Position numbers and translations under genes: made by a program
Source of the DNA: Verrucomicrobia bacterium ADurb.Bin018
GTDB taxonomy: Bacteria > Verrucomicrobiota > Kiritimatiellia > CAIQIC01 > Lenti-01
DNA length: 64,000 bases
Direction: 5' to 3'
Assembly (NCBI GenBank): GCA_002071335.1
Contig: MWEZ01000001.1
Location: forward strand, 7,262 to 71,261
Notes under the pieces: generated by a model
Seen by the model: the letters and a program-made list of their open reading frames with translations, nothing else
What the model was told of the DNA's origin: nothing
Databases searched by the model: none
Part shown: piece by piece, positions 8,201 to 58,480 of the stretch
Layout: the number at the start of each line of letters is the position of its first letter
Numbering within the stretch: position 1 is the first letter of the stretch

Positions 8201-8411
8201 AGGTTTTCACCCACGCCGCCGGGTTGATCAACCTGCTACGAGTGGGGAGGGCTCTTGCGCGCCGGGCGAAGGAATCAAAAAAGCTTTGGGGCCGGCTGGA
8301 ACGAGCGTATTCATGCGTGGCATGGTAGGCGGCACGGAATGCGACCGTCAATGCCGAACGTCTCACAGACCTTCCAGCCTTTCCCGGCAAGAAGGTTTCG
8401 TCCCGCAACAA
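5238..8411 (-). CDS. large membrane-anchored protein with LamG/concanavalin-like domain and CotH kinase-like domain
   Basis: 1057 aa. N-terminal TM helix. LamG-like segment (SAWIRLEEP...LYENGELKAEG). C-terminal half shows CotH-family blocks (YWGKKKLLSIK, GHYYGLYEL, WDFDH). Start uncertain. Confidence 0.55.
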   Translation of the reverse strand: MLRDETFLPGKAGRSVRRSALTVAFRAAYHATHEYARSSRPQSFFDSFARRARALPTRSRLINPAAWVKTWVTFIGCVLLAAAMIGLVATARWHNQCANEAVAECETEIRQYLVEELGIAALFTFEDPQARDLISVSAALCPGTVAVVQEGRPARQFDGREQTWLAWPLPWDMLGSNFTLSAWIRLEEPERDQDIFGGAYATLQTGLRYENGQIFFDVPAKERQCVSYPFTRTGEFVHVAATVDMASGRMSLYENGELKAEGPVKEILWPPLNLCAGKTSWYVVRSPFSGMIAETALWNRPLSAAEIQKLSSGVGSLLATHVPRALRWRHRLAKRWLAVTQTFCTVQNVFDSRLWRATEKSIAGVPAIRLVLSDKDRKHFLNAHEQSRRSGRRVLQAARPRRVHALAEGAMLSAQLWLHGSDTAYADFIRPGFVLEYEDGCTFDGCSKILLQPPEASGFLAPFVISRLERHFGVPQVRDGLCRLYINNTLAGIYRYSDYRQNGIMPGDYRRAAEPFIRTPTTWNVMFNTQPFEPVLRIKSRPWPGNQALLDALFEEVKKECRPLLLRDFQSPLNTREIGQQIRQNYYDLQEQMHPAWAAGPPAQHMADFLDEYLVLGSNRSPFYLEGDLDLSVHQVADTSLAWESSAPQWISTTGKVHQPTSGAPKEVVLTAVIQDPQQTIRKDLRFRVMPRETTLPAVFLTVTDILAKDRRVDAVVEFADPTSGVRRLIASQAHRAGVNHRGNTSYWGKKKLLSIKTDSAHGVFGDPQDRVLKTINARQDPSFLNNGLAYGLFREFSAPGAPRYAPLVRPSEVFVNGHYYGLYELCTRIDERLVDETPWDGEGTPDIFVYRHESAPPRAHPFRVSRPRGAEHSWHEPIDQLLNDFTKAEWLPRISARHDISSLIDLQILINLMQNRNGYPFPFAMHDALVYDATRGQLFHVPWDFDHPNTRPWEWLANNMMRRMEQENPDYMPTLAARWFALRQTVLSDHALERRIQALRDPIAAYVRWDYERWNYSHGVPHRRHVQHTRNVLRNSTAAMDAALKKWLPHYPATKR

Positions 8412-8566
8412 GTCCCGTCCTACAAAAGAGTCCCAATGTGAAGTTCAGAAAGCAGGGCCATTTTTCAAGGTCATGGATTGTGACCTTGATCAGAAGGATG
8501 GGCTAATAATTGGTTCCTGAGTAAACCTCAATCGAATTGCCGTGGTGCGATTGGGAGGCTGAGGTT

Positions 8567-23586: not shown

Positions 23587-25308
23587 ATGCAAACCATCCA
23601 AGACCTCCTTTCCGAACAAGTCCGCGCGGCGTTTGCCGCGGCATTCCCCGGCGCGGACCTCGCCGGTCTGCCGCTGGCCGCCACCCCCGCCGGTGATGAA
23701 GCTTTTGGCGATTACCAATCCAACGGCGCAATGGCCGCCGCCAAGGTGCTGCGCCAACCGCCGCGCCAAGTAGCCGAACAGGTGGTCCGCCACCTACCGA
23801 CCGGCGACCTGCTGGCCAAGGTGGAGATCGCCGGCCCCGGCTTCATCAACATGACGCTGGCGGATGACGCACTGGCGCGGCACGTGGCCGCCATGCAGGA
23901 TGATCCGCACGTGGGCCTGCCGCAATCCGGCGCCGGCCGGCGGCTCATTCTGGACTATTCCGCCCCCAACGTCGCCAAGCCGATGCACATTGCGCACATC
24001 CGCTCCACGGTCATTGGCGATGCACTCAAACGCATCTACCGCGCGCTTGGCTACGAGGTGCTCGGCGACAACCATTTGGGCGACTGGGGTACGCAGTTCG
24101 GCATTCTGATCATGGGCTACCGCCACTTTTTGGACAAAGCAGCACTGGCGGCCTCGCCGGTGGATGAGCTGCAACGGGTGTATGTGCTCTCGCACCAGCG
24201 TTGCGAAGAGAACCCCGCGTGGCAAGACCAAGCGCGCGCGGAATTGGTCAAGCTACAAGCGGGCGACCCGGAAAACCGCGCGCTGTGGCAAACCTTCATT
24301 GATTTGTCGCTGGAGGAATTCAACCGGATTTACGCGCGGCTGGGCGTGTCGTTTGAGTTGATCCGCGGCGAATCCTATTACAACGATGCCCTCCCCGGTG
24401 TGGTGCAAAAGCTGCAAGACCTTGGTCTCGTGCGCGAGAGCGAAGGCGCGCTGGTGGCATTTCTGGACGACGAAAAATTGCCGCCGTGCATCGTGCGCAA
24501 ATCCGACGGCGGCTACAACTACGCCACGACGGACCTCGCCACCGTGTTCTCCCGCGAGCAGGAATTCCAGCCCGCCGCCATTTTGTATGTGACGGATGAA
24601 CGCCAGCAGTTGCACTTCCGGCAGTTTTTTGCCATCGCCCGCAAGGCGGGCGTGACCACGCCGCTGCGGCATATCTGGTTCGGGCTGATGCGATTGCCGG
24701 AGGGTCTGCTCTCCACCCGCAAAGGCACTGCCATCAAGCTGGACCTGCTGCTGGACGAAGCCGAAAAGCGTGCGCTGGAACTGGTGCGACAGGCCTCGCC
24801 CGACATGCCCGAAGCCCAACAGCAGGCCGTGGCGCGCGCGGTGGGCATCGGCGCGGTGAAATATGCGGACCTCTCGCAAAACCCGCAGTCCGCCGTCAGC
24901 TTCACGTGGGAAAAAGCGCTGGCCATGGACGGCAATTCCGCGCCTTATTTGCAATATGCCTACGCGCGCATCGCCTCGGTGCTGGACAAGCACGCGGAGC
25001 GCTTTCCGGGCCACGACTGGTGTGCCGCACCGCTGGTGTTGGACTCGCCCCACGCCCGTCGGCTGGCGCTGCGGCTGGCGCGATATTCCGGTGCGGTGTG
25101 CGCCGCTGCCGCGCAGGAAAAACCGTCGCTGCTGGCGGATGCACTCTACGATTTGTCGCAGGCGTATTCCTCGTTCTACCAGAACGTGCCGTTCCTCAAA
25201 GCGGAGGCTGGCCTGCGCGAAAGCCGCGTGCGGCTCTGCGCACTGACCGCCAAGGTGCTGCGTCACGGCTTGGGCTTGCTGGGCATCGAGACGCCCGACC
25301 GGATTTGA
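23587..25308 (+). CDS. argS: arginine--tRNA ligase
   Basis: HIGH-type motif (PNVAKPMHIAH). DALY anticodon-binding domain. Start trimmed to MQTIQDLL. Confidence 0.9.
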   Translation: MQTIQDLLSEQVRAAFAAAFPGADLAGLPLAATPAGDEAFGDYQSNGAMAAAKVLRQPPRQVAEQVVRHLPTGDLLAKVEIAGPGFINMTLADDALARHVAAMQDDPHVGLPQSGAGRRLILDYSAPNVAKPMHIAHIRSTVIGDALKRIYRALGYEVLGDNHLGDWGTQFGILIMGYRHFLDKAALAASPVDELQRVYVLSHQRCEENPAWQDQARAELVKLQAGDPENRALWQTFIDLSLEEFNRIYARLGVSFELIRGESYYNDALPGVVQKLQDLGLVRESEGALVAFLDDEKLPPCIVRKSDGGYNYATTDLATVFSREQEFQPAAILYVTDERQQLHFRQFFAIARKAGVTTPLRHIWFGLMRLPEGLLSTRKGTAIKLDLLLDEAEKRALELVRQASPDMPEAQQQAVARAVGIGAVKYADLSQNPQSAVSFTWEKALAMDGNSAPYLQYAYARIASVLDKHAERFPGHDWCAAPLVLDSPHARRLALRLARYSGAVCAAAAQEKPSLLADALYDLSQAYSSFYQNVPFLKAEAGLRESRVRLCALTAKVLRHGLGLLGIETPDRI

Positions 25309-25314
25309 ATCGCG

Positions 25315-25630
25315 GTAGGGCGGGAACGGTTGAGGAACGAAACTTTCCCGCCGAGAAAGCGGCTGGAAGATCTGCAACCGTTCTAGCCCTACAAACCAAA
25401 CCCGAACACAAACCAAACCCGGCTGCTTTTGTAGGGCGGGAATGGTTGAGGAACGAAACCTTCCCGCCGAGAAAGCGGCTGGAAGATCTGCGACCGTTCC
25501 AGCTCTACAAATCAAACCCGGACACAAACCAAACCCGGCTGCTTTTGTAGGGCGGGAATGGTTGAGGAACGAAACCTTCCCGCCGGAAAAGGCTGGAAGG
25601 TCTGCGACCATTCCAGCCCTACAAACCAAA
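25315..25630. repeat. tandem array (about 2.5-3 copies, unit about 116 bp) of a REP/BIME-like element carrying two GC-rich stem-loops (GGCTGGAA...TTCCAGCC and GGGCGGGAA...TTCCCGCC)
   Basis: Direct repeats read from the sequence. A related single copy lies at 48792-48876. Sits at the convergent junction of argS and rplQ. Confidence 0.75.
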
Positions 25631-25651
25631 CGGCATCCGTTGCCGGATGCC
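25622..25651 (-). terminator. putative rho-independent terminator after rplQ
   Basis: Hairpin GGCATCCG-TTGC-CGGATGCC followed on the minus strand by TTTGGTTTG. Confidence 0.45.
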
Positions 25652-25679
25652 GTCAGGGGAAAACCGCTGGTTGGGCGGC

Positions 25680-26150
25680 TTACTTTTTGTCGTCCTTCTT
25701 GGACGTTTTCTTGGAATCCTTTTTGGCTTCCTTCTTGTCGTCCTTCTTGGGCTCCTTGGCATCCTTTTTGCCCTTGGCCTTGGCTTCCGGCGGCACAAAG
25801 TCCACCCACTCCAGCAGGCACATTTCGCTGCTGTCGCTCATGCGCTTGCCGAGCTTGATGACGCGGGTATAGCCGCCCTTGCGCTCAGCCATGGCCGGCG
25901 CAACGGCGCTGAACAGTTCCTGGACGGCTTTTTCGAGGCGCAGGGTGGCGATCGCCTGCCGGCGAGCCGCCAGCGTGCCCTTCTTGCCCAGCGTGACCAT
26001 CTTGTCGGCCAGACGCTTGGCAGCGCGGGCCTTGGGCAGGGTGGTCTTGATGCGCTTGGCGAGGATCAGATTGCAGACCAGGCTGGCCATCAGCGCCGAG
26101 CGCTGCGCCGTGGTCCGGCCAAGTTTTACGGTGTTCTTGCGATGACGCAT
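25680..26150 (-). CDS. rplQ: 50S ribosomal protein L17 (Lys-rich C-terminal extension)
   Basis: MRHRKNTVKLGRT N-terminus. KKD/KKE-rich tail. Confidence 0.9.
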   Translation of the reverse strand: MRHRKNTVKLGRTTAQRSALMASLVCNLILAKRIKTTLPKARAAKRLADKMVTLGKKGTLAARRQAIATLRLEKAVQELFSAVAPAMAERKGGYTRVIKLGKRMSDSSEMCLLEWVDFVPPEAKAKGKKDAKEPKKDDKKEAKKDSKKTSKKDDKK

Positions 26151-48791: not shown

Positions 48792-48876
48792 GGCTGGCAG
48801 GTCTGCGACCGTTCCAGCCCCACAATCCAACCGGCTGCTTTTGTCGGGCGGGAATGGTTGAGGAACGCAACCTTCT
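48792..48876. repeat. single copy of the REP/BIME-like element seen at 25315-25630
   Basis: GGCTGGCAGGTCTGCGACCGTTCCAGCC...GGGCGGGAATGGTTGAGGAACG, near-identical to the 25.3 kb array. Sits at the convergent junction of the rSAM gene and hppA. Confidence 0.7.
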
Positions 48877-48900
48877 CGCATTGCTGAAAATGCTCTAGCC

Positions 48901-54883: not shown

Positions 54884-56800
54884 TTGCATGATTTTGGGCA
54901 TCTCGGCATCTCGGCATCTCGGCATCTCGGCATCTCGGCATCTCGGCATCTCGCAAGCCGTATAGCGCGGCATGTTTCTTTCCTAATCACCTCCCTGCTT
55001 CTTCCAATTTCTTCTCTTGCCGCGACGGCTCTGGATGTCCGCGGCGTCTCGGTCACCTTCTCCCCTCAGGGGGATTCTCTTTCTGAAATTATCCGAACGC
55101 TCCATTCCGCCAAGCGGCGCATAGATGTCGCGCCATTTTTCCTAAGCCATACCAATCTGATCGACACCCTCTGCTTCCTGTCGGCCAAGCAAAAGCTCAA
55201 GGTCCGCTGCTTCATGGACCCCGCCTCCACCGCTCCCGCTGAATGTCATGTTCTGGACCGGCTTGCCCAAAACGGCGTCGAGGTCTACGTGGTCCAAGTG
55301 CCCGACGGCAAAATGCACCTCAAGTGCGCCGTCGTGGACGACGGCGTTGTCATCACCGGAGCAGCCAATTGGACGGTTCGCGGATTCGAAAACAATGTCG
55401 AGGATTCTCTCTTTCTGCAATCCCCGGCCCTTGCTCAAGCCTATCGTGCGCGTATGGATCGTTTGCTGCCAATTTCCGAACTTTATCATGCCCCCCGCCT
55501 TGACGACTCCGAACGCTTCGAGTCCAAGCCCAGCAAGCTTTCCCAAAGTAAACCCCCGACGCTGACATATGCCGCCCCGCGGCTCCAGCGCTTCAGCTCC
55601 GTCCGATCCGCCCGCGTCTTCTTCTCCTCTGATTCCGAACCCGACAACGGATTGTTGGCATCCGAAACCATTCTATCCCGCATTCACGCCGCCCAGAAGC
55701 GGGTGGATGTCGCCATGTATCTGCTGGTTGAACCTACGCTTGTCGAGGCCCTCGCCCAAAAAGCAACCGAGGGCAAAGTGCCCGTTCGCCTGCTTGTCGA
55801 TTCCGGAATGCTCGACTCTTCTTCGCGAACCGTGCTGGAAACACTCGTGGCCGCCGGGGTGCAGGTGAATTGGCTGGGCAACGAGAAGTTCAGTATGCAT
55901 CTTAAGACGCTTGTCCTGGACGAAGCGCAGGTCTGGACCGGCTCCGCCAACTGGTCTCAATCCGCCTTCGCGCACAACATCGAGGATTTGGTTCTCATTG
56001 AGTCCGCCGATCTGGCGCGCGCCTATACCCGGCACTTCGACACCCTCCATGCCGCCGCAACCCCTTTCCAACCCGCTTCTCTTTCGGTTTCAGCACCATC
56101 CAATGCCCCGGCCTCCGCCGAATTCCCCATCGGCTTGCCACCCACCGGTCCCCGCACCAACTGGCCGTCTGGCCTTCAAGACGTCGCCAGCGAAGACCTC
56201 CTTCTTTCCGCCTCCGCCCGCTATCTCGCCGACGAAGAATACCTCCCCGCCTTGCTGGACCTGATCCGAAATGCCCATCAATCGGTCCTTGCCTCCATGT
56301 ATGTCATGGGCGAGCCCCAAAAGGACCAACCCAACCTCAACCAACTCACCGCCGCTCTGGCGCAGGCTGTTCAACGCGGAGTCTATGTCCATCTGGTCCT
56401 CCACATGCCCCTGTCCGAAGCCGTCACCATGAACCAAATCCATCTGGACTGGGCCGAAAATCTCCGCGCCAAAGGCGTGGATGTCCGCTTGCATATCCCC
56501 ACCATCCCCCTGCATGAAAAAGTCGTTGTCGTGGACCTTGCCAAAGTCCTGATCGGCTCCCACAATTGGTCCGAAGGCGCCCTCTCCAGCCAAAAAGTCA
56601 CTGAATCCGGCGTCCTGCTCGTCCTGCCCCAACAGGATCGGCGGCTGGCCGACCATATCCTAAACCGCGAATCCATCCGCGACATGCGCACCCCTGCGCT
56701 TTGGCAGGAGGAGTTGCGCACCCTCCGGCAACTGGGAAACACTTCCGGCAAGGAACGCGACACCCTCCTCGATCAGCTCGAACCGGAGGAAATGCCGTGA
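54884..56800 (+). CDS. secreted phospholipase D/nuclease family protein with three tandem HKD domains
   Basis: HLKCAVVD...GAANWT, HLKTLVLD...GSANWS and HEKVVVVD...GSHNWS. Hydrophobic signal-like segment after the repeat-encoded N-terminus. Only a TTG at 54884 is in frame upstream, so the start is uncertain. Confidence 0.55.
   Translation: MHDFGHLGISASRHLGISASRHLASRIARHVSFLITSLLLPISSLAATALDVRGVSVTFSPQGDSLSEIIRTLHSAKRRIDVAPFFLSHTNLIDTLCFLSAKQKLKVRCFMDPASTAPAECHVLDRLAQNGVEVYVVQVPDGKMHLKCAVVDDGVVITGAANWTVRGFENNVEDSLFLQSPALAQAYRARMDRLLPISELYHAPRLDDSERFESKPSKLSQSKPPTLTYAAPRLQRFSSVRSARVFFSSDSEPDNGLLASETILSRIHAAQKRVDVAMYLLVEPTLVEALAQKATEGKVPVRLLVDSGMLDSSSRTVLETLVAAGVQVNWLGNEKFSMHLKTLVLDEAQVWTGSANWSQSAFAHNIEDLVLIESADLARAYTRHFDTLHAAATPFQPASLSVSAPSNAPASAEFPIGLPPTGPRTNWPSGLQDVASEDLLLSASARYLADEEYLPALLDLIRNAHQSVLASMYVMGEPQKDQPNLNQLTAALAQAVQRGVYVHLVLHMPLSEAVTMNQIHLDWAENLRAKGVDVRLHIPTIPLHEKVVVVDLAKVLIGSHNWSEGALSSQKVTESGVLLVLPQQDRRLADHILNRESIRDMRTPALWQEELRTLRQLGNTSGKERDTLLDQLEPEEMP
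54897..54953. repeat. octanucleotide tandem repeat (CATCTCGG), about 7 copies, inside the 5' end of the triple-HKD PLD gene
   Basis: Read directly. The unit length is not a multiple of 3. The in-frame translation is HLGISASR HLGISASR. Confidence 0.85.
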
Positions 56801-57576: not shown

Positions 57577-58265
57577 CCTCCCTGCGCACAACTGGCTACG
57601 CTTTGTTTACCCTCTTGACTCTGCTCCAACCGCTCTCTGCCGCCCCAAAACTGATCATCAATCCCGAGACGTTCGATTTCGGCGAGGTACCCTCCGGTGA
57701 ATCCGTTCAGGCCACCTTTACCCTCCGCAACGCTGGCGATGAACCCCTCCACATCAACCATGTCCGCACCAGTTGCGGTTGCACCACCTCTCGCCTGGAC
57801 AAACGCGAACTTGCTCCCGGAGAAGAAACCCCGCTAACCGCCACCCTTTCCCTCAGAAACCGCAGCGGCCCCCAACACCAGCGCGTCACCATCGCCTCCA
57901 ACGATCCGGATGCCCCCTCCAGGCAGGCCCACATCCAGGGAACCGCCGTCCAATACCTCACGTTGACCCCCTCCGCCGTCCTACTTTTCTCCGCCCCCCA
58001 AGGGCAATCCATTACCCGAACTCTTTCGCTCCATTCCGAAAATCAGACCCCCTTCCAACTTCTCTCCATCGAGGTCACCCATCCCAATCTTACCGTCGCG
58101 GTCACGCCGGTCTCCCCCAGCTCCTACCGCCTCGCCCTCACCATCCCCGCCACCTGGCCCGCCGGACGCATCAACGAATCCTTACGCATCCACACCGACC
58201 ATCCCCACGCCCCGATGCTGACTTGCTCCATCACCGGAACCCTGCAAACTGGAGACAACCCATGA
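57573..58265 (+). CDS. DUF1573 domain secreted protein
   Basis: FDFGEV...FTLRNAGDEPLHINHVRTSCGCT signature. ATGA overlap with the upstream gene. Confidence 0.65.
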   Translation: MTSLRTTGYALFTLLTLLQPLSAAPKLIINPETFDFGEVPSGESVQATFTLRNAGDEPLHINHVRTSCGCTTSRLDKRELAPGEETPLTATLSLRNRSGPQHQRVTIASNDPDAPSRQAHIQGTAVQYLTLTPSAVLLFSAPQGQSITRTLSLHSENQTPFQLLSIEVTHPNLTVAVTPVSPSSYRLALTIPATWPAGRINESLRIHTDHPHAPMLTCSITGTLQTGDNP

Positions 58266-58480
58266 TCCCGCATCGCCCATGGCCGCTATTATTCCTGACA
58301 CTCGCCCTCTGGACAGGGGCCTCCTCCGCCCAGACTTGGACCACCGTCTGGACGCCCGGCTCCGCCCCCGCCCCCACCCACACGAAGATGGAACAAGAAA
58401 TGGAACCAGAAAAAGACCACAAATCACCGACCAACTGCTATCCCTGCAAGGAGTGGGAAGCCTACGGCGACGGCACCGGC
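58186..58480. repeat. conserved 5' module copy 1 (DUF1573 3' end, ATGA junction, signal peptide, TWTTVWTPGSAPAP...NCYPCKEWEAYGDGTGKWV)
   Basis: Near-identical to 61988-62290 and partly to 63650-63940. GC-rich relative to downstream sequence. Confidence 0.75.

What the first reader, a model, noticed from the sequence alone, without database searches (positions are those of the whole stretch)
25315..25630. Tandem array of a REP/BIME-like double stem-loop element at the argS/rplQ convergent junction
About 2.5-3 head-to-tail copies of a unit of about 116 bp. Each unit contains two GC-rich 8-bp inverted repeats (GGCTGGAA-N12-TTCCAGCC and GGGCGGGAA-N18-TTCCCGCC), separated by an A/C-rich spacer (CTACAAACCAAACCCGAACACAAACCAAACCCGG). 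The units differ by a few point substitutions.

This is not a CRISPR array: the units are contiguous, with no unique spacers. The array is followed by the rplQ terminator hairpin. Placement between convergent 3' ends is typical of REP elements that stabilise mRNA or act as terminators. The repeat-derived ORFs in the track (MVEERNLPAEKAAGRSA...) are artefacts.
Basis: seen in the sequence. Interest (0 to 1): 0.5.

Follow-up and report, generated by a model that had tools for sequence, protein, structure and literature searches.

The report
Tandem REP (REPIN) cluster, Kiritimatiellia
The repeat between argS and rplQ is a tandem cluster of three GTAG-tagged palindrome pairs (REP doublets, or REPINs), a known kind of small mobile DNA copied by a RAYT transposase, documented here for an uncultured wastewater bacterium of the class Kiritimatiellia.

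Summary
Window 25315-25631 holds 2.8 copies of a 116-bp unit (93% matches) between the convergent genes argS and rplQ. Each unit is an inverted pair of GTAG-tagged imperfect palindromes with GTAG facing outward: A (long loop, + strand) and B (short loop, - strand). The pair is followed by a conserved 38-nt linker. The element is dispersed. The window has three more copies, all intergenic. The same hairpin occurs in dozens of Kiritimatiellota genomes, where GTAG is conserved although it was not part of the search pattern. The stem shows compensatory changes. In seven related genomes a REP-associated tyrosine transposase (RAYT, NCBIfam NF047646) is flanked on both sides by this REP type. Array length varies between strains (2 or 3 units). 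The window's own species (Kiritimatiellia bacterium, also named ADurb.Bin018) encodes a RAYT of a second family, but that gene is flanked by a different GTAG-REP pair. The cognate family-1 RAYT was not located in this species. This is a new member of a known kind. GTAG-REP dimers repeated in tandem are already described, including in the PVC group.

The parts
25315..25352 (+). REP A1: GTAG + long-loop hairpin (GGCGGGAACGGT-TGAGGAACGAA-ACTTTCCCGCC). It starts 7 nt after the argS stop codon.
25361..25392 (-). REP B1: GTAG + short-loop hairpin on the - strand (read as ...CTAC on +). It forms the inverted doublet with A1 across an 8-nt linker.
25393..25430 (.). 38-nt linker between GTAG ends: AAACCAAACCCGAACACAAACCAAACCCGGCTGCTTTT. 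AAACCAAACCCG is duplicated inside it. A shorter 19-nt version occurs at 48824-48842.
25431..25468 (+). REP A2
25477..25508 (-). REP B2
25509..25546 (.). Second 38-nt linker
25547..25584 (+). REP A3
25591..25622 (-). REP B3 (perfect hairpin, GTAG intact)
25623..25631 (.). Conserved tail AAACCAAAC after the last CTAC. This is the right boundary of the cluster.
25629..25654 (-). rplQ intrinsic-terminator-like hairpin followed by TTTGGTTTG. It is a neighbour of the repeat, not part of it.
23587..25308 (+). argS (arginine--tRNA ligase). Its 3' end faces the cluster.
25680..26150 (-). rplQ (ribosomal protein L17 with a Lys-rich C-terminal tail). It is convergent with argS.
48792..48880 (+). Second locus: B (-, tag mutated to GTGG), a 19-nt linker, then A (+, tag mutated to GTCG). 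It lies between the convergent radical-SAM/SPASM and H+-PPase genes.
14035..14094 (-). Third locus: a 5'-truncated doublet (A 3' arm + linker + B-like hairpin, tag GTTG). It is intergenic between a YdjM-like gene and the next + strand ORF.
8363..8428 (-). Fourth locus: a degenerate doublet (86% to the array unit over 66 nt). It is intergenic between a PLD-like gene and a CotH-domain gene on the - strand.

Best explanation
The array is a cluster of three REP doublets (REPINs; in Di Nocera's terms, heterodimers with GTAG outside) of a GTAG-tagged REP family shared by many Kiritimatiellota.

Shown here:
- Each REP is GTAG followed by an 11-bp stem with a one-base bulge. The loop is either 5 nt (type B) or 11-12 nt (type A).
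- A and B sit in inverted orientation about 8 nt apart, with GTAG outward.
- Doublets are dispersed in intergenic DNA.
- The stem is maintained by compensatory changes.
- In related genomes a RAYT (HUH/Y1 transposase of family NF047646) is flanked on both sides by this REP type.

Inferred from what is known of E. coli TnpA_REP and of REPINs:
- The RAYT binds the folded hairpin together with GTAG on single-stranded DNA, cuts nearby and so spreads doublets to new intergenic sites.
- The tandem cluster then grew by duplication of a whole doublet-plus-linker unit of 116 bp, through unequal recombination or replication slippage. Mixing between units followed. This explains strains with 2 or 3 units and the mosaic unit sequences.

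Inferred and untested:
- Because hairpin A starts 10 nt after the argS stop codon and argS has no terminator of its own, the cluster is probably transcribed as the argS 3' end.
- There its very stable structure could protect the mRNA from 3' exonucleases, impede read-through into antisense rplQ, or affect termination of translation.
For: - Array and hairpins.
- Dispersed copies at four intergenic loci.
- Scan of 185,579 species genomes with a pattern that lacked GTAG: 86 of 139 hits are preceded by GTA, giving TTGTAG|GGC. All of these come from Kiritimatiellota-type MAGs.
- Free stem position: G:C 58, T:A 20, T.C 8, G.A 0. ACC lies opposite GGT in 72 of 86.
- Formal count: 6 of 11 pairs change on both sides. 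There are 47 compensatory cells against 15 +/- 2.8 in shuffles (0 of 500). The covariation score is 0.222 against at most 0.048 for slid registers.
- 81 A> <B doublets in loci that carry the window's exact A variant, with tandem arrays of period about 94, 116, 139, 179 and 186 bp.
- RAYT ORFs next to the REPs in loci fetched only by their REP sequence. They score 92-116 bits on NF047646 (cut-off 80), match Pfam Y1_Tnp, and the best PDB hit is 4er8, TnpA_REP.
- Both-sided flanking within about 150 bp in 7 genomes. L065 and L166 carry the window's exact A variant.
- Strain L004 has exactly one unit fewer and mosaic units.
- Folding: z = -10 for the array as RNA and z = -3.75 for one doublet as ssDNA.
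- The architecture matches published GTAG-REP dimers and clusters (PMC3733652).
Against: - No RAYT lies in the 64-kb window.
- The only RAYT tied to the window's species (P0245) belongs to a second family. It is directly flanked by a different GTAG-REP pair.
- A family-1 RAYT was not found for this species, so current mobility here is unproven.
- All three non-array copies in the window have a mutated tag or a degenerate stem. B-type tags are intact in only 17 of 34 perfect hairpins in this lineage. Both would fit a decaying rather than an active population.
- No transposition, cleavage or transcript data exist, and whole-genome copy number could not be counted.
Confidence: 0.85

Rival explanations
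1. The units are above all a structured RNA element: a 3'-UTR stabiliser, terminator or insulator of argS, or a small RNA. On this view they are selected for an RNA function and are not mobile DNA.
For: The fold is very stable. The array starts 7 nt after the argS stop, and no separate argS terminator is present. Two of the four window loci, and further loci with gene calls (L179 arrays), lie between convergent genes.
Against: Copies occur in both orientations relative to neighbouring genes, and also between co-directional genes. There is no Rfam match even at permissive thresholds. The hairpins lack U-tracts. The conserved GTAG tag and the RAYT genes embedded among the copies are the signature of REP DNA. 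An RNA-level side effect is compatible with the main explanation.
Confidence: 0.07
2. The doublet is a MITE, a miniature inverted-repeat element moved by a DDE transposase that recognises the terminal inverted repeats. It would be unrelated to RAYTs.
For: The doublet is an imperfect palindrome of roughly 85-90 nt with complementary ends (TTTTGTAG...CTACAAA) and is dispersed in intergenic DNA.
Against: No target-site duplication is evident at the array boundaries. The ends carry GTAG/CTAC, the RAYT recognition tag. Seven genomes place a RAYT, not a DDE transposase, inside the repeats. Single REPs and truncated doublets also occur.
Confidence: 0.03
3. In this species the A/B elements are immobile relics. 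The cognate family-1 RAYT has been lost, and the argS-rplQ array persists and changes only through recombination or slippage.
For: No family-1 RAYT was located for a species seen in 100-265 assembly blocks, while its family-2 RAYT was found easily. Tags are mutated at all non-array copies in the window. B tags are intact in only 50% of perfect hairpins.
Against: Absence was not demonstrated. Protein cluster members could not be listed exhaustively, and RAYTs embedded in repeats assemble poorly. A-type tags are 93% intact. Many identical A hairpins exist (49 metagenome loci), which suggests recent copying.
Confidence: 0.3

Closest known systems
E. coli REP/BIME elements (GTAG-3 family) with RAYT TnpA_REP (YafM; PDB 4er8)
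   Same: Both have a GTAG tag 5' of an imperfect palindrome with a stem irregularity. In both, REPs of two types with different loop lengths alternate in orientation, conserved linkers join them, and tandem clusters sit between gene ends. In both, a HUH/Y1 enzyme of the same NCBIfam family is flanked by its REPs.
   Different: The stem and loop sequences are unrelated. The phylum differs (Kiritimatiellota, PVC group). RAYT identity to 4er8 is low (E = 5e-9 over about 125 residues). No IHF or gyrase binding data exist. The linker at the GTAG ends is long (38 nt) and itself internally duplicated.
REPINs of Pseudomonas fluorescens SBW25 (Bertels and Rainey 2011, PMC3116915)
   Same: Two inverted REPs form a hairpin-capable doublet as the unit. 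Singlets look like decayed doublets. There are higher-order tandem clusters, a single-copy RAYT flanked by the elements, and several RAYT/REP families in one lineage.
   Different: Here the two halves differ systematically (heterodimer: G:C against T:A at one stem pair, and 12-nt against 5-nt loops). This favours two separate hairpins in ssDNA. The stem sequence is shared across several genera, whereas REPIN sequences in Pseudomonas are largely species-specific.
GTAG-17/GTAG-19 REPs of Opitutus terrae (Verrucomicrobia; Di Nocera et al. 2013, PMC3733652)
   Same: These are GTAG-tagged REPs in the PVC superphylum. [quoted passage not shown]
   Different: The class (Kiritimatiellia) and the REP sequence differ. 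O. terrae dimer partners are 1-2 bp apart, and many copies are intragenic.

Membership tests
REP (GTAG-tagged repetitive extragenic palindrome) | Short (20-40 nt) imperfect palindrome able to form a stem-loop | tested here: met
   The units are 32-38 nt with an 11-bp stem and a 1-nt bulge. 92.9% of cells are paired across 65 distinct variants, and 6 of 11 pairs show compensatory changes. Folding z-scores are -3.75 and -10.
REP (GTAG-tagged repetitive extragenic palindrome) | Conserved GTAG tetranucleotide at the 5' foot of the hairpin | tested here: met
   The search pattern excluded GTAG. Even so, 86 of 139 hits are preceded by GTA(G). In the window's lineage 55 of 59 perfect A hairpins carry GTAG. 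In the array 6 of 6 do.
REP (GTAG-tagged repetitive extragenic palindrome) | Many dispersed copies, predominantly extragenic | tested here: inconclusive
   There are four loci (about 10 REPs) in 64 kb, all intergenic. The exact A variant occurs in 49 metagenome loci. A whole-genome count for this species could not be made.
REPIN / BIME | REPs paired in inverted orientation with a short spacer, and clusters with alternating orientation and conserved linkers | tested here: met
   81 A> <B doublets with gaps of 20 nt or less. The pairing is nearly universal in L117-L165. The linker motifs GGCTGCTTTT-GTAG and CTAC-AAWCCAACC are conserved in the array, at 48.8 kb and in isolated doublets.
REPIN-RAYT system | A RAYT gene flanked by the same REPs | tested here: met
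   This is met in related genomes. Seven genomes have A/B REPs within about 150 bp on both sides of a family-1 RAYT, and at least nine loci have a RAYT next to REPs.
REPIN-RAYT system | The cognate RAYT is present in the same genome as the element under study | tested here: inconclusive
   There is no RAYT in the window. The species encodes RAYT P0245. The link is that P0304 is 100% identical to the window's MBL-fold protein, and its accession lies 773 numbers from the RAYT's. That RAYT is flanked by different REPs. No family-1 RAYT was located.
RAYT (NCBIfam NF047646, Pfam PF01797) | Profile score above the curated cut-off, with an HUH motif and a catalytic Tyr motif | tested here: met
   Scores are 116.3, 92.1, 109.8 and 107.5 bits against a cut-off of 80. 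The motifs PDHVH and Y(I/V)xxNPVRAGL are present. The alignment to 4er8 covers both motifs.
REPIN-RAYT system | RAYT-dependent cleavage or mobilisation of the REP on single-stranded DNA | not testable with these tools
   This needs biochemistry or mobilome sequencing.
CRISPR array | Short repeats separated by unique spacers of similar length | tested here: not met
   The inter-hairpin segments are themselves repeated (93-94% identical units) and recur at another locus.
Intrinsic terminator | GC-rich hairpin followed directly by a U-tract | tested here: not met
   Only the separate rplQ hairpin at 25629-25654 (- strand) fits. The A and B hairpins have no T-run, apart from one weak - strand hit at 25591-25575.
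Known structured RNA (Rfam 15) | Match at a family's gathering score | tested here: not met
   There are no matches in the window at gathering thresholds. In the permissive search only hairpin-like hits remain, far below threshold.
MITE | Terminal inverted repeats with target-site duplication and a related autonomous IS | tested here: inconclusive
   The ends are complementary. No duplication is visible at the array borders, and no related IS was seen. This was not examined systematically.

The most novel reading that the evidence does not exclude
The window's species may maintain a large, recently copied population of A/B doublets without the cognate family-1 RAYT. The copies would then either be cross-mobilised by the resident family-2 RAYT, whose own REPs are quite different, or processed from one end only. 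One-ended processing is suggested by the asymmetry in tag conservation: GTAG is intact on 93% of perfect A hairpins but only 50% of perfect B hairpins. Together with a stem sequence shared across several Kiritimatiellales genera, this would be a REP-RAYT system outside Proteobacteria with unusual rules of specificity and persistence.
Probability: 0.15. Interest if true: 0.55.

Novelty: new member of a known kind. Interest (0 to 1): 0.3.

Why it matters
The result explains an intergenic repeat that could be mistaken for genes or for a CRISPR-like array. It also flags a cause of contig breaks in Kiritimatiellia MAGs, since many contigs end next to the RAYT and its REP arrays.

It adds a clearly defined REP-RAYT pairing in the PVC group. 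There are two RAYT families, each with its own class of GTAG-REP. One REP stem is conserved across genera and shows compensatory changes. That gives people who study REPIN-RAYT co-evolution a test case outside Gammaproteobacteria.

The 2-or-3-unit polymorphism could serve as a strain marker. None of this changes the current picture of what REPs are.

Tried and rejected
- **CRISPR:** rejected, because the 'spacers' are themselves repeated.
- **Known RNA family:** no Rfam match at gathering or permissive thresholds.
- **Coding potential of the array ORFs:** no gene was called in six assemblies and there is no Pfam match.
- **RAYT in the window:** a regex scan and a profile hmmsearch of all ORFs of 50 aa or more found none.
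- **Family-1 RAYT in the window's species:**
  - Look-ups of P0039, P0038, P0144, P0136, P0080 and P0020 all led to other, low-prevalence organisms.
  - The first cluster listing returned no accessions.
  - The 'contigs' and 'sources' columns of the homologue tables describe only the cluster representative. My early argument from prevalence was therefore unsound, and I dropped it.
- **Metagenome scan:** none of its loci overlaps the window, so no locus could be assigned to the window's genome by overlap.
- **Second REP family (C/D):** it flanks the species' RAYT but is absent from the window.
- **oriC reading of the palindromes at 18.9-19.2 kb:** GC skew shows no switch there, so this is left open.
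- **The paper on REPs close to stop codons (Liang, Rudd and Deutscher 2015):** it was not in the searchable library. That idea rests on my own recollection only.

Full report
**Observation.** Tandem Repeats Finder reports one strong array at 25315-25631: period 116, 2.8 copies, 93% matches, no indels. The array lies between argS (23587-25308, +) and rplQ (25680-26150, -). Both genes are identified by Pfam domains on the called genes of six independent assemblies of the same locus and by source annotations of the exact proteins. The rplQ terminator-like hairpin is at 25629-25654 on the - strand, followed by TTTGGTTTG. No gene is called inside the array in any assembly. The two array-derived ORFs match no Pfam family.

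**Anatomy.**
- Hairpin A reads GTAG-GGCGGGAAYGGT-(11 nt)-ACCTTCCCGCC on the + strand.
- Hairpin B, read on the - strand, is GTAG-GGCTGGAAYGGT-(5 nt)-ACCTTCCAGCC.
- B is therefore an inverted, short-loop version of A, with a G:C to T:A swap at one stem pair.
- The unit is GTAG-A> (8 nt) <B-CTAC plus a 38-nt linker, AAACCAAACCCGAACACAAACCAAACCCGGCTGCTTTT.
- As single-stranded DNA, one doublet folds into two hairpins closed by the TTTGTAG/CTACAAA ends (z = -3.75).
- As RNA, the whole array folds at -169.9 kcal/mol (z = -10). In that fold the A and B arms also pair with each other.

**Dispersal.** The window holds three further copies.
- 48792-48880 carries B, a 19-nt version of the same linker, then A. 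Both tags are mutated (GTGG, GTCG).
- 14035-14094 is a truncated doublet.
- 8363-8428 is a degenerate doublet.

All are intergenic. Two loci lie between convergent genes: argS/rplQ, and radical-SAM/SPASM with H+-PPase. Two lie between co-directional genes. A tolerant detector finds 12 hits in the window. Twenty shuffles of the window give 0-2 hits, mostly 0.

**Family-wide tests.** I scanned one genome per species (185,579 species) with GGGCKGGAAYGGT-N(6-16)-TTCCMGCC. The pattern deliberately left out GTAG.
- Of 139 matches, 86 are preceded by GTA, so the sequence reads TTGTAG|GGC. These come from MAGs named Pontiella, Tichowtungia, Kiritimatiellales, Kiritimatiellia, or loosely 'Verrucomicrobiota' and 'Lentisphaerae'.
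- Matches without the tag are ordinary perfect palindromes from unrelated phyla.
- Among tagged copies the free stem position is G:C 58, T:A 20, T.C 8 and G.A 0.
- ACC lies opposite GGT in 72 of 86.
- Loop lengths are bimodal, at 5 and 11-12 nt.

On 65 distinct GTAG-anchored arm pairs, 92.9% of cells pair, against 84.9% in shuffles. Six of 11 pairs change on both sides. There are 47 compensatory cells against 15 +/- 2.8 (0 of 500 shuffles). Slid registers give covariation of at most 0.048, against 0.222. The hairpin is therefore under selection or is copied as a unit.

**The transposase.** ORFs with PDHVH and Y..NPVRAGL motifs lie among the REPs in loci that were fetched only by their REP sequence.
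- They score 92-116 bits on NCBIfam NF047646, 'REP-associated tyrosine transposase' (cut-off 80).
- They match Pfam Y1_Tnp.
- Their best solved relative is 4er8, E. coli TnpA_REP bound to a REP.
- In seven genomes this 'family 1' RAYT has A/B-type GTAG-REPs within about 150 bp on both sides.
- In L065 and L166 the upstream REP is the window's exact A variant.

This is the defining arrangement of REP/REPIN-RAYT systems (PMC3116915, PMC3337134).

**The window's own organism.** Exact window proteins are annotated 'Kiritimatiellia bacterium' and 'Verrucomicrobia bacterium ADurb.Bin018'. A scan of metagenome contigs for the exact A hairpin gave 49 loci, mostly at 58-64% GC against 61.4% for the window.
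- A> <B doublets are almost universal in these loci.
- They form tandem arrays with periods of about 94, 116, 139, 179 and 186 bp. The argS-rplQ array is therefore one of many such clusters.
- One locus, L155, carries a RAYT named P0245 (NF047646, 107.5 bits).
- P0245 is found in 101 assembly blocks.
- Its NCBI accession, MBP9572430.1, lies 773 numbers from MBP9573203.1. That protein is 100% identical to the window's MBL-fold protein. I infer that both come from one MAG of the window's species.

This 'family 2' RAYT is directly flanked on both sides by arrays of a different pair: GTAG-CCGGGGGCGGTGACCCCGG and GTAG-GCGGGCTCGTTGAGCCCGC. An A/B doublet lies 502 bp away. Family-2 RAYTs of two other species are likewise flanked by REP pairs with 8-bp stems and 3-nt loops, whose sequences differ from species to species. 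The cognate enzyme of A/B is therefore family 1. I could not locate a family-1 RAYT in this species, and I could not exclude one either.

**Dynamics.** One assembly (L004) has exactly one unit fewer. Its two units are mosaics of the window's three. This fits unequal recombination or slippage plus conversion. In the lineage that shares the window's variant, GTAG is intact on 55 of 59 perfect A hairpins but on only 17 of 34 perfect B hairpins. In other Kiritimatiellota the figures are 88% and 80%. Counts may include orthologous loci from different samples, and I have no tested explanation. Isolated doublets keep conserved flanks (GGGCTTTTGTAG and CTACAATCCAACC) and often longer conserved sequence. 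The linkers are therefore part of the element.

**Comparison with what is known.** Di Nocera et al. 2013 (PMC3733652) describe the following:
- GTAG-tagged REPs in many phyla, including the PVC bacterium Opitutus terrae;
- dimers with GTAG outside;
- heterodimers whose partners differ in loop length (Enterobacteriaceae) or in stem;

That is the architecture seen here. Bertels et al. 2017 (PMC5581495) tie abundant REPs mainly to RAYT groups 2 and 3, which they studied in Enterobacteriaceae and Pseudomonas. No paper in the library mentions REPs together with Kiritimatiell*. I therefore class this as a new member of a known kind.

**Function.**
- *Shown:* the structure, its dispersal, the covariation, the RAYT association in relatives and the copy-number polymorphism.
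- *Inferred from E. coli work (PMC3479197 and my own knowledge of Ton-Hoang et al. 2012):* RAYT recognises the hairpin plus GTAG on single-stranded DNA and cleaves it.
- *Speculative:* the cluster forms the argS 3' end, because hairpin A starts 10 nt after the stop codon and argS has no terminator of its own. It could stabilise the mRNA, block convergent read-through or influence termination of translation. The last idea rests on my recollection of Liang, Rudd and Deutscher 2015, which was not retrievable here.

**Verdict.** This is an ordinary but cleanly documented REP/REPIN cluster in an under-studied phylum. The open question is which RAYT, if any, serves it in this species.

Noticed in passing
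window 18911-19153: Eight copies of a 20-nt palindrome, TTTTCCAC-N4-GTGGAAAA, lie at about 31-nt spacing in the 450-bp divergent intergenic region between alaS and a small symporter-accessory/SSF transporter operon. Each half resembles a DnaA box (TTATCCACA), and parA lies 3 kb away. This could be oriC or an operator array. GC skew shows no switch there.
   Followed up: partly
L177 9400-11160 (same species as the window; also L175-L184): A second GTAG-REP family (GTAG-CCGGGGGCGGTGACCCCGG and GTAG-GCGGGCTCGTTGAGCCCGC) forms arrays of about 500 bp on both sides of RAYT P0245. Many contigs end right there, so these arrays break assemblies. The family is absent from the window.
   Followed up: yes
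L117-L165 (metagenome loci with the window's A variant): Tag conservation is asymmetric. GTAG is intact on 93% of perfect A hairpins but only 50% of perfect B hairpins (variants GTTG, GAAG, GTGG, GTCG, GCAG). In other Kiritimatiellota genomes the figures are 88% and 80%.
   Followed up: partly
L004 10471-10727 (ERZ28615159), compared with window 25315-25631: A strain variant has two units instead of three (exactly 116 bp shorter). Its unit sequences are mosaics, and one A tag is mutated to GTTT.
   Followed up: yes
window 54897-54953: A perfect octanucleotide repeat, (GGCATCTC) x 7.1. Such a tract could change length by slippage. Its context was not examined.
   Followed up: no
window 58187-58486, 61993-62292, 63632-63931: Three direct repeats of about 300 nt (91% and 64% identity) lie in a region where GC drops from about 0.62 to 0.49-0.51. 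They may be paralogous genes or a foreign island.
   Followed up: no
window 25680-25760 (3' end of rplQ): L17 carries a Lys/Asp-rich C-terminal tail of about 40 residues (KGKKDAKEPKKDDKKEAKKDSKKTSKKDDKK). It is encoded by imperfect 12- and 24-nt tandem repeats.
   Followed up: no
L126, L127, L131, L135, L154 (alignment): Several 'isolated' A/B doublets share about 60 nt of conserved sequence upstream and about 50 nt downstream, well beyond the REPs. This suggests a larger composite repeat, or insertion into a repeated target.
   Followed up: no
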